The notes: generated from the sequence alone by a model not told the origin. A DNA stretch of 64,000 nt from Saccostrea cucullata (GCF_032062105.1 NW_026925150.1:655-64654), one strand, 5' to 3'; numbered from the stretch's first letter, positions 11,419 through 12,228 are shown. A program made the numbers and translations.

Positions 11419-12228
11419 ACGACGGCGTATAAGTGCCATTTTAACAATGTAGAATTTTTTTTTTAATCGTTTGTACGATTTAATAAATCGTTTGTACAAT
11501 TTAATAAATCGTTTGTACGATTTAATAAATCGTTTGTAAGATTTATTAAATTGTACAAACAATTTACTAAATTGTACAAACGATTTATTAAATCGTACAA
11601 ACGATTTAATAAATTGTACAAACGATTTAATAAATTGTACAAACGATTTAACAAACAAATTGTACAAACGATTTATTAAATTGTACAAACGATTTACTAA
11701 ATTGTACAAACGATTTATTAAATCGTACAAACGATTTACTAAAATTGTACAAACGATTTATTAAATCGTACAAACGATTTATTAAATTGTACAAACGATT
11801 TAATAAATTGTACAAACGATTTAACAAACATATTGTACAAAAGATTTATTAAATTGTACAAACGATTTATGAAATCGTACAAACGATTTACTAAATTGTA
11901 CAAACGATTTACTAAATCGTACAAACAATTTATTAAATCGTACAAACGATTTATTAAATCGTACAAACGATTTATTAAATCGTACAAACGATTTACTAAA
12001 TCGTACAAACGGTTTACTAAATCGTACAAACGATTTATTAAATCGTACAAACGATTTATTAAATCGTACAAACGATTTATTAAATCGTACAAACGATTTA
12101 TTAAATCGTACAAACGATTTACTAAATCGTACAAACGATTTACTAAATCGTACAAACGATTTATTAAATCGTACAAACGATTTTTAAAAAAATTCTACAT
12201 TGTTAAAATGGCACTAATACGCCGTCGT
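11419..12228. repeat. 21-bp palindromic minisatellite array (~35 units) enclosed by ~45-bp inverted flanks
   Basis: Left flank 'acgacggcgtataagtgccattttaacaatgtagaattttt' (11419-) is the reverse complement of the right flank 'aaaaattctacattgttaaaatggcactaatacgccgtcgt' (-12228). The interior unit 'aatcgtacaaacgatttatta' is itself near-palindromic (aatcgt..acgatt). Its orientation flips between 11461-11535 and the remainder. Confidence 0.8.

What the first reader, a model, noticed from the sequence alone, without database searches (positions are those of the whole stretch)
11419..12228. Palindromic 21-bp minisatellite array enclosed by 45-bp inverted flanks (potential giant hairpin)
About 35 copies of 'aatcgtacaaacgatttatta' make up the array. 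The unit core is its own reverse complement (aatcgt..acgatt). The array's orientation flips near its left end. The whole array sits between inverted flanks 'acgacggcgtataagtgccattttaacaatgtagaattttt' and their reverse complement. The locus can fold as a long hairpin or cruciform. It resembles a MITE whose interior has been replaced by a satellite. The three long ORFs that the track finds here (125-149 aa, YKRFIKS/NRLYDL repeats) are pure repeat translation.
Basis: seen in the sequence. Interest (0 to 1): 0.5.

Follow-up and report, generated by a model that had tools for sequence, protein, structure and literature searches.

The report
Foldback-type non-autonomous DNA transposon, oyster-like genome
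The palindromic 21-bp array between inverted flanks is a real but ordinary piece of selfish DNA: an 812-bp non-coding "cut-and-paste" transposon with a 6-bp target duplication, relatives in other bivalve-like sequences, and an internal repeat array that has grown on one side.

Summary
Window 11418-12229 is an 812-bp element. It has 37-nt unique terminal inverted repeats (36/37) and a T/A run at each end. Inside are 34 copies of a 21-bp near-palindromic unit: 4 in one orientation, then 30 in the other.

The ends are 5'-TA...TA-3' and abut a perfect 6-bp direct repeat, TAACAC. A chance match has p about 6e-4.

Two further non-coding long-TIR elements in the same window have the same signature: 45864-48431 (GTAAGA) and 58427-62028 (CTCTGG). 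In a scan of all 16 start dinucleotides against TSD lengths 3-10, only TA plus 6 bp recurs.

Relatives exist elsewhere. A JGI metagenome contig (L007) has 21 of 22 terminal bases identical, followed by the same units. More distant copies are L005 and L004/L008. Homology starts exactly at TA.

TA..TA termini with a 6-bp TSD are the published hallmark of the IS3EU/GingerRoot superfamily, which has homologues in Crassostrea. No transposase was found, so the superfamily assignment is inferred.

The "giant hairpin" is real in silico but comes mostly from unit palindromy. The long ORFs are repeat translation. Verdict: an ordinary foldback-type element, a new member of a known kind, of low to moderate interest.

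The parts
11412..11417 (.). Left copy of the 6-bp target-site duplication TAACAC
   Evidence: Identical hexamer directly abutting both TIR ends. Chance of a 6-mer match in this window is 5.8e-4.
11418..11454 (+). Left terminal domain of the TIR: TACGACGGCGTATAAGTGCCATTTTAACAATGTAGAA. It begins with TA, and its first 12 nt form the palindrome TACG-N4-CGTA.
   Evidence: 36/37 identical to the reverse complement of 12193-12229. Homology to L007, L005 and L004 termini begins exactly at 11418.
11455..11464 (+). T10 run between the terminal domain and the array
   Evidence: A homopolymer run occupies the same position in L007, L005 and L004.
11465..11545 (-). Left-arm units: 4 copies of the 21-bp unit in reverse orientation (TTGT loop). 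With 11418-11464 they form the extended left TIR.
   Evidence: The gapless end-in comparison gives 122/131 identical to the right end.
11544..11548 (.). Orientation flip point. There is no unique middle domain.
11549..12187 (+). Main array: 30 forward units (ACAA loop) with a 21-bp period
11570..11915 (+). Two copies of a 173-bp (8-unit) block, 11570-11742 and 11743-11915. This older part of the array is rich in the AATTG (CpG to TpG) unit variant.
   Evidence: 95.4% identity at lag 173, against 77% at lag 21. Unit table.
11915..12187 (+). Homogeneous, presumably recently expanded tract of AATCG units with a roughly 126-bp spacer pattern
   Evidence: 96-97% identity at all lags from 21 to 147.
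12102..12229 (-). Extended right TIR: the last 4 units, a T3A7 run, and the terminal domain 12193-12229 ending ...CCGTCGTA
12230..12235 (.). Right copy of the 6-bp target-site duplication TAACAC
11353..11730 (-). Spurious 125-aa ORF (repeat translation running out through the left TIR)
   Evidence: No Pfam family.
11739..12176 (-). Spurious 145-aa ORF (NRLYDLI heptads)
   Evidence: Its only specific database matches are translations of related 21-bp arrays.
11833..12282 (+). Spurious 149-aa ORF (YKRFIKS heptads)

Best explanation
Window 11418-12229 is one insertion of a non-autonomous cut-and-paste DNA transposon with foldback-type architecture. Each end carries a roughly 37-nt terminal domain that begins with TA, then a homopolymer run, then 21-bp units with a TCGT-N4-ACGA palindromic core. 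The two ends are inverted copies of each other, so the ancestral element was essentially one long inverted repeat.

Shown: the TIRs, the perfect 6-bp target duplication, the absence of coding capacity, and relatives with the same termini and units in other sequences.

Inferred:
- A transposase supplied in trans binds the termini, excises the element and reinserts it with a 6-bp staggered cut. The 5'-TA...TA-3' / 6-bp TSD signature points to the IS3EU/GingerRoot (integrase-like DDE) superfamily. The subterminal units may also be bound; they contain the terminal TACGA motif.
- After or between transpositions the array on one arm grew, by slippage or unequal exchange favoured by the hairpin-prone units. 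This gave 30 units against 4.

The hairpin or cruciform potential is a by-product of this architecture. It is not evidence of a separate function.
For: 1. Anatomy. Terminal domains are 36/37 identical and the extended TIR is about 128 nt at 93%. There are 4 reverse and 30 forward units.

2. Target duplication. The perfect 6-bp direct repeat TAACAC lies flush with the TA...TA ends. The chance probability is 5.8e-4.

3. Same signature elsewhere in the window. An unbiased scan for 12-nt or longer perfect TIRs with matching flanks covered 16 start dinucleotides and TSD lengths 3-10. Only TA plus 6 bp had more than one hit. The three hits were this element, 45864-48431 (GTAAGA; 361-nt TIRs at 96% with 7/21-bp subrepeats) and 58427-62028 (CTCTGG; TIRs over 200 nt). 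All three begin TAYGRMRG.

4. Family recurrence.
- L007 (JGI metagenome) begins TACGACGGCGTATTCGTGCCAT, 21/22 identical to the right TIR here. A T/A run and 14 AATCGTTTGTACGATTT units follow. This terminus lies outside the ORF that led to the contig.
- L005 has two inverted arrays of a related 21-bp unit, bounded by termini TACGGCAGCGTAGAAAGGCCACG and TATGGAAGCGTAGAAGAGCCACG.
- L004 has TACTGAAGCGTAATGCTGCCATG next to its array.
- In the six-terminus alignment, similarity starts exactly at TA, with invariant TA..GCGTA..GCCA.

5. Literature. [quoted passage not shown] GingerRoot has a 6-bp TSD, TA...TA termini, 100-150-bp TIRs and homologues in Crassostrea gigas (PMC6839031). IS3EU-related tandem repeats are listed for C. 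gigas (PMC8268682). The host here is oyster-like; the best XK-related protein hit is Saccostrea cucullata.

6. Array growth. There is a 173-bp block duplication at 95.4% and a 96-97% homogeneous right tract.
Against: - No transposase gene was found in the window or in any related locus. The superfamily assignment therefore rests on TSD length and terminal dinucleotides only.
- Only one copy of this particular family lies in the 64-kb window. Copy number in the source genome could not be measured.
- The one other copy with both ends, L005, has no matching 6-bp flanks (ATGTAT against TTCACC). This needs an extra assumption of an old or recombinant copy.
- TA at both ends is also what a Tc1/mariner-type TA duplication would give.
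- Exact-pattern scans of metagenome, prokaryotic-genome and viral collections found nothing.
- No empty-site paralogue exists in the window.
Confidence: 0.75

Rival explanations
1. It is a Tc1/mariner-type (Stowaway-like) MITE. On this reading the true element is CGACGGCG...CGCCGTCG and the flanking TA is the 2-bp target duplication. The extra TAACAC identity is coincidence.
For: Every terminus in every locus is preceded by TA. L005 has TA at both ends and no 6-bp match. Tc1/mariner is the richest DDE superfamily in bivalves (PMC10294476).
Against: It must treat a perfect hexamer match as chance (p about 6e-4). The same would apply independently to two other TA-terminated elements in the window, with GTAAGA and CTCTGG. 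In the all-dinucleotide, all-length control only TA plus 6 bp recurs.
Confidence: 0.1
2. It is a static local minisatellite that underwent an inverted duplication. It is not a mobile element.
For: There is a single copy in the window. Palindromic units can promote template switching and inversion.
Against: Unique-sequence terminal domains outside the array are inverted copies of each other. A flush 6-bp direct repeat flanks them. The same terminal domain with the same units recurs in unrelated flanking contexts in other contigs.
Confidence: 0.04
3. It is a pearl/CvA/DTC84-type, Helentron-derived tandem-repeat element of the kind common in bivalves.
For: The host is a bivalve. Tandem repeats lie inside a short non-coding element, and the window is full of roughly 160-bp satellite-like arrays.
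Against: Those elements have about 160-bp core repeats in at most about 5 copies, a microsatellite at one end, short subterminal inverted repeats (about 10-20 bp) on otherwise unrelated left and right modules, and an AA putative TSD (PMC3879986). Here there are long true terminal inverted repeats, a 6-bp TSD, 21-bp units in 34 copies and no microsatellite module.
Confidence: 0.02
4. The foldback is a functional locus in its own right, for example a source of hairpin RNA or small RNAs, or a protein-binding iteron array exapted by the host. This would be in addition to, or instead of, being a transposon relic.
For: Strong predicted fold. The TCGT-N4-ACGA core is invariant in every unit extracted from all four loci, at a 21-bp (two helical turns) period.
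Against: There is no covariation. Outside the invariant 4-bp core, stem positions 5-6 pair in half or fewer of the units in L005, L004 and L008. No Rfam family matched. No expression data are available. Conservation is explained by common descent within a TE family.
Confidence: 0.05

Closest known systems
[quoted passage not shown]
   Same: 5'-TA...TA-3' termini and a 6-bp target-site duplication, a rare combination. The extended TIR of about 128 nt falls within the 100-150-bp range reported for GingerRoot. The superfamily is reported from Crassostrea gigas.
   Different: No integrase-like DDE transposase is associated here. TIRs built from 21-bp tandem palindromic units, and the foldback layout, are not described for this superfamily in the papers read. 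Sequence similarity to catalogued IS3EU termini (Repbase) could not be checked.
Foldback elements: Drosophila FB, Tetris of D. virilis, Galileo (PMC4079207)
   Same: A non-coding element made almost entirely of long TIRs. These have an outer unique domain followed by a variable number of tandem subrepeats. Arm lengths are unequal and the internal repeats can expand towards satellite-like arrays.
   Different: FB and Tetris have 8-10-bp TSDs and are attributed to the Mutator superfamily. The foldback-like Galileo also carries internal tandem repeats and is cited in that paper as an exception to the Mutator assignment. Their subrepeats are 10-220 bp and unrelated in sequence. Here the TSD is 6 bp and the termini are TA..TA. 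Foldback is a structural class that arises independently, not a lineage.
Tandem-repeat-containing MITE-like elements of bivalves: pearl/CvA, DTC84, Cg_HINE (PMC3879986; PMC7492417)
   Same: Short non-coding mobile elements of bivalves that carry an internal tandem array of variable copy number. Palindromic motifs in the repeats are proposed as hotspots of array length change.
   Different: Those are Helentron-like. They have an AA putative TSD, short subterminal inverted repeats (about 10-20 bp) on otherwise unrelated left and right modules, roughly 160-bp cores in about 5 copies or fewer, and a microsatellite tail. None of these features is present here.
Stowaway/Tc1-mariner MITEs
   Same: Small size, TIRs, TA next to both ends, and strong fold-back potential.
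   Different: The duplication here is 6 bp (TAACAC), not TA alone. The TA belongs to the conserved terminus.

Membership tests
IS3EU/GingerRoot superfamily (non-autonomous member) | 6-bp target-site duplication | tested here: met
   TAACAC at 11412-11417 and 12230-12235, flush with the TIR ends, p = 5.8e-4. Two further TA-terminated elements in the window also have perfect 6-bp TSDs. The one distant relative with both ends (L005) shows no TSD.
IS3EU/GingerRoot superfamily (non-autonomous member) | 5'-TA...TA-3' element termini | tested here: met
   TACGACGG...CCGTCGTA. In the alignment of six termini from four loci, similarity begins exactly at TA. The criterion comes from PMC10045372 and PMC6839031.
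IS3EU/GingerRoot superfamily (non-autonomous member) | Mobilised by, or derived from, an element encoding an integrase-like DDD/E transposase with the same termini | not testable with these tools
   No such ORF occurs in the window or the related loci. The source genome and Repbase are not searchable here.
IS3EU/GingerRoot superfamily (non-autonomous member) | Superfamily present in the host lineage | tested here: inconclusive
   Literature only. GingerRoot homologues are reported in Crassostrea gigas, and IS3EU-related satDNAs CgiSat35 and CgiSat47 are listed for C. gigas. The host of this window is oyster-like but unidentified.
Foldback elements (structural class) | Long TIRs composed of an outer unique domain plus tandem subrepeats, making up most of a non-coding element | tested here: met
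   The same layout occurs in L005, with two inverted arrays and an 876-bp middle domain.
Foldback elements (Drosophila FB/Tetris lineage, Mutator-related) | 8-10-bp TSD | tested here: not met
   The TSD is 6 bp. The scan found no 8-10-bp candidates. The criterion comes from PMC4079207.
pearl/CvA/DTC84 Helentron-like tandem-repeat elements | AA putative TSD, unrelated L and R modules with short subterminal inverted repeats, about 160-bp core repeats, adjacent microsatellite | tested here: not met
   None of these is present at 11418-12229. The criteria come from PMC3879986.
Tc1/mariner-type MITE | TA-only target duplication | tested here: not met
   TA is present but lies inside a longer arrangement in which a 6-bp duplication abuts the TA-initiated TIR. 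The same holds for two other elements. It is not fully excluded, because L005 is compatible with TA only.
MITE (operational definition) | Small, non-coding, TIRs, TSD, multiple copies | tested here: inconclusive
   Size (812 bp), lack of coding capacity, TIRs and TSD are met. Copy number in the source genome is unknown. Relatives were seen in 4 external contigs.

The most novel reading that the evidence does not exclude
This may be the first recognised foldback-type, non-autonomous lineage of the IS3EU/GingerRoot superfamily in molluscs. Its 21-bp units, spaced at two helical turns, carry an invariant TCGT-N4-ACGA palindrome that echoes the terminal TACG-N4-CGTA. On this reading they are arrays of transposase-binding iterons conserved across species. 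Their expansion on one arm would be an early step from transposon end to satellite DNA.
Probability: 0.3. Interest if true: 0.45.

Novelty: new member of a known kind. Interest (0 to 1): 0.3.

Why it matters
As a single locus it matters little. It is a non-coding transposon insertion in repeat-rich bivalve DNA.

It is useful in three modest ways:

1. It removes three spurious ORFs from any gene track.
2. It gives a clean diagnostic for annotating a poorly catalogued transposon superfamily in bivalve genomes: TAYGRMRG termini plus a 6-bp TSD, seen three times in 64 kb.
3. It is a tidy example of a tandem array that is born inside a transposon's inverted repeats and then expands asymmetrically. 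This is the proposed route from mobile elements to dispersed satellite DNA in oysters.

Long palindromic insertions of this kind are also potential sites of replication stalling, deletion and assembly error.

Tried and rejected
- **Protein search with the plus-strand repeat ORF:** 3306 word-sharing candidates, none significant.
- **Exact look-ups of window ORFs and of the Saccostrea protein:** not on record.
- **Exact-pattern DNA scans for the TIR and unit dimers:** 0 hits in every case, across metagenome, prokaryotic genome and viral collections. In hindsight the patterns were too strict. L007 differs in its spacers and at 1-2 TIR positions.
- **C. gigas satellitome supplements:** no monomer contains the unit core. 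CgiSat43 is also 21 bp but 66.7% A+T, against 76% here, so it is not the same repeat. The five-oyster satellitome paper has no supplements held.
- **Empty-site paralogue or repeated flanks in the window:** none.
- **The 17-nt exact match to an inner TIR segment at 28526-28542:** isolated, with no terminus or units nearby. Treated as chance.
- **Selection on hairpin stems (compensatory changes):** rejected. Only the invariant 4-bp core always pairs. Positions 5-6 pair in 10-55% of units in L005, L004 and L008.
- **L006, L009 and L010:** L006 is a bacterial contig. L009 and L010 carry unrelated 21-bp minisatellites that matched only as heptad translations. Most of the 1276 representative-library hits are heptad-rich proteins and are irrelevant.
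- **Rfam and tRNA scans:** nothing.
- **Accession look-ups in the literature to name the source organisms of L004-L008:** nothing.

Full report
**1. What is in the sequence**

- A search for the 21-bp unit AATCGTACAAACGATTTATTA with up to 3 mismatches finds 34 copies. All lie between 11460 and 12187, against 0.02 expected in shuffles.
- Tandem Repeats Finder reports 33.6 copies at 90% match.
- Four copies (11460-11543) are on the minus strand and thirty (11549-12187) are on the plus strand. The change of orientation is at 11544-11548.
- The unit is TAAATCGT-ACAA-ACGATTTA-T: an 8-bp stem, a 4-nt loop and a single spacer base. The two orientations therefore differ only in the loop (ACAA or TTGT) and the spacer, at 5 of 21 positions.
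- The array is bounded by unique inverted domains at 11418-11454 and 12193-12229, 36/37 identical. Each is followed by a T/A run.
- Read inward from both ends without gaps, the two arms stay 93% identical for about 128-131 nt, which covers the first four units.
- Nothing else in the 64-kb window resembles the flank or the unit.

**2. Host and context**

The window is animal DNA with 28-40% G+C. It has no tRNA or Rfam hits and many satellite-like arrays.

An XK-related exon at 42274-42975 has its best match in the oyster Saccostrea cucullata at 60% identity. The source is therefore an oyster-like bivalve not represented at species level in the protein database.

**3. The ends look like a transposon insertion**

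The inverted repeat begins with T at 11418 and ends with A at 12229. Immediately outside lie TAACAC (11412-11417) and TAACAC (12230-12235). Two random hexamers in this window match with probability 5.8e-4.

I then scanned the whole window for pairs of 12-nt or longer perfect inverted termini within 8 kb whose flanks are identical. The scan covered every one of the 16 possible starting dinucleotides and every flank length from 3 to 10.

- Every combination gave 0 or 1 hit, except TA plus 6 bp, which gave three.
- The first hit is this element.
- The second is 45864-48431, with TSD GTAAGA. It has 361-nt TIRs at 96% that themselves contain 7/21-bp subrepeats.
- The third is 58427-62028, with TSD CTCTGG and TIRs over 200 nt.
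- All three begin TAYGRMRG, and none has a credible coding region.

This genome therefore carries a class of elements with 5'-TA...TA-3' termini that duplicate 6 bp on insertion. The finding is one of them.

**4. The flank does define a family**

Direct DNA pattern scans of the public collections found nothing. A profile-free protein search with the minus-strand repeat ORF returned, among many irrelevant heptad-rich proteins, a few short ORFs that are translations of similar 21-bp arrays. Their contigs could be fetched.

*L007 (JGI metagenome, 1 kb).* It reads ...CAAAAC|TACGACGGCGTATTCGTGCCAT..TTTTAAAAAA, followed by 14 units of AATCGTTTGTACGATTT plus a 4-nt variable spacer. The first 22 bases match the window's right TIR at 21 positions. 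This terminus lies outside the ORF that led to the contig, so it is independent evidence.

*L005 (ENA assembly, 97-kb contig).* It has two inverted arrays of a related unit, TAAGTCGTACAAACGA(C/G)(T/A)TAC, with 17 and 10.8 copies. They are separated by 876 bp and bounded by TACGGCAGCGTAGAAAGGCCACG and, on the other strand, TATGGAAGCGTAGAAGAGCCACG. The same contig carries a copy of the 142-bp satellite seen at window 9670-10234, so its host is a related bivalve.

*L004 and L008.* L004 (ENA) has TACTGAAGCGTAATGCTGCCATG, an A-run, then 11 units of TATCTCGTACGTACGACTTAT. L008 (NCBI assembly GCA_013332715.1) shares that array and 421 nt of internal sequence with L004 at 88%.

In an alignment of all six termini, the flanks are unrelated and similarity starts exactly at TA. 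The invariant pattern is TA....GCGTA.....GCCA. The first 12 bases form a TACG-N4-CGTA palindrome whose spacer varies.

**5. Which kind of transposon**

According to the literature read here:

[quoted passage not shown] - GingerRoot elements have a 6-bp TSD, described as relatively rare among known TEs. 72 of 77 have TA...TA termini, their TIRs are 100-150 bp, and homologues exist in Crassostrea gigas (PMC6839031).
- The fungal IS3EU-related element Styx is annotated in that study with a 36-bp TIR and a TSD length of 6 bp (PMC10853768).
- Two C. gigas satellite families are annotated as IS3EU-related (PMC8268682).

Other 6-bp-TSD elements have different ends: Polinton has AG..TC, and Ginger and LTR elements have TG..CA.

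The signature therefore fits IS3EU/GingerRoot. This is an inference from two hallmarks. No transposase was found, and Repbase could not be consulted.

The main rival is a Tc1/mariner-type MITE with a TA duplication. It explains the TA at every end and the lack of a 6-bp TSD in L005 (ATGTAT against TTCACC). It must, however, dismiss three independent perfect hexamer duplications as chance.

L005 is old. Its arrays are 81-83% internally matched, and its arms are 88% complementary. Foldback-type elements are known to recombine. I therefore regard its missing TSD as a weak counter-argument, but it is recorded.

**6. Architecture and how the array grew**

In all relatives the units sit directly inside the terminal domain. 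They are therefore part of long, subrepeat-containing TIRs, not a later replacement of the interior.

This is the foldback architecture described for Drosophila FB, Tetris and Galileo (PMC4079207). Those elements have 8-10-bp TSDs and are attributed mostly to the Mutator superfamily. Foldback structure is thought to arise independently in different superfamilies.

Here there is no middle domain. The left arm keeps 4 units and the right arm has 30. The array shows two kinds of growth:

- A 173-bp (8-unit) block is present twice, at 11570-11742 and 11743-11915, with 95.4% identity. This block is rich in the AATTG (CpG to TpG) unit variant.
- A right-hand tract, 11915-12187, is 96-97% identical at every multiple of 21 bp. 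This points to recent expansion.

Slippage or unequal exchange, helped by hairpin-prone units, is the likely mechanism. That is inference.

**7. The hairpin**

- As single-stranded DNA the element folds at -260.8 kcal/mol, z = -29.6.
- Inverting the left arm removes the terminal foldback but keeps composition and unit palindromes. That still gives -189.0 kcal/mol.
- The forward array alone gives -158.7 kcal/mol, and a single unit gives -6.0 kcal/mol.

About 70 kcal/mol therefore comes from the long-range TIR pairing. The rest is local.

Across loci only the inner TCGT/ACGA base pairs are constant. Stem positions 5-6 pair in all or nearly all units of the window and L007 (all in the window, 11 of 14 at position 5 in L007), but in only 10-55% of the units in L005, L004 and L008. 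There is thus no covariation support for selection on a hairpin.

What is conserved is a TCGT-N4-ACGA core at a 21-bp period. It contains the terminal TACGA motif. This is compatible with repeated transposase-binding sites, but that is speculation.

One curiosity remains. The loop orientation relative to the terminus is opposite in L005 (terminus followed by ACAA) and in the window and L007 (terminus followed by TTGT).

**8. The ORFs**

The 125-, 145- and 149-aa ORFs are heptad translations of the 21-bp unit. They have no Pfam hit above a curated cutoff and no homologues other than repeat translations.

**9. Verdict**

This is a real, well-defined and ordinary feature: a non-autonomous foldback-type DNA transposon insertion. 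It very probably belongs to a TA..TA / 6-bp-TSD superfamily (IS3EU/GingerRoot-like) that is active or was recently active in this bivalve genome. Its internal 21-bp array has expanded asymmetrically.

I found no description of this family in the searchable literature. It is a new member of a known kind. Interest is low to moderate.

Noticed in passing
window 45864-48431: A second long-TIR, non-coding element. It has 361-nt TIRs at 96% that contain 7/21-bp subrepeats (ATTCGAG). Its termini are TACGAAAGCCC...GGGCTTTCGTA, with a perfect 6-bp TSD GTAAGA (45858-45863 and 48432-48437). It lies between the two XK-related exons, so it is probably intronic.
   Followed up: partly
window 58427-62028: A third element with the same signature. 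Its termini are TATGGAAGGGAATTACCG..., with TIRs over 200 nt at about 97% and a perfect 6-bp TSD CTCTGG. The 3.6-kb interior has no convincing ORF. Its first 8 bases equal the right terminus of L005.
   Followed up: partly
window 9670-10318 and L005:73-192: A 142/157-bp tandem array in the window has a 77-83% match in the ENA contig that carries the distant relative of the element. This shows that the contig comes from a related bivalve. The satellite family itself was not identified.
   Followed up: partly
window 5279-6039, 38455-39522, 53425-54406, 56934-58113: Four short arrays of 162-168-bp units (some with 334-335-bp higher-order periods) containing GGGGCC / CCCCCGGGG motifs. They are of the size and style reported for Helentron-borne satellite-like repeats in oysters. 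No comparison was made.
   Followed up: no
window 42274-42975 and 49209-49661 (minus strand): Two ORFs with XK-related (PF09815) matches. They cover the C-terminal and N-terminal parts of the domain and are probably exons of one gene. The best database hit is Saccostrea cucullata at only 60% identity.
   Followed up: partly
window 33215-33691 (+): A 158-aa ORF with a DUF3504 domain (E = 2e-14). Its context was not examined.
   Followed up: no
window 27466-28260 (+): A 264-aa ORF that reads like genuine coding sequence but has no Pfam match. Just downstream, at 28526-28542, is a 17-nt exact match to an inner part of the element's TIR (TTCTACATTGTTAAAAT), with no terminus or units nearby. The match is probably chance.
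   Followed up: partly
window 19276-19351: About 2.5 copies of a 31-bp unit that is itself a near-perfect palindrome (GGGTCATTTTTCGACGTCGAAAAATGACCCC).
   Followed up: no
L005:3972-5502 compared with window 11418-12229 and L007: The 4-nt loop of the units points the opposite way relative to the terminus in L005 (terminus followed by ACAA) and in the window and L007 (terminus followed by TTGT), although the arms are homologous. This is unexplained. It could reflect loop inversion through the palindromic arms.
   Followed up: no
L006:4455-4910: A bacterial-looking contig has a 151-aa ORF made of 21-bp/heptad repeats (NRPNDLV). The ORF sits downstream of a run of housekeeping genes (ribosomal protein L25, peptidyl-tRNA hydrolase) and upstream of a C69 peptidase gene. 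It was found only because of heptad similarity and is unrelated to the element.
   Followed up: no
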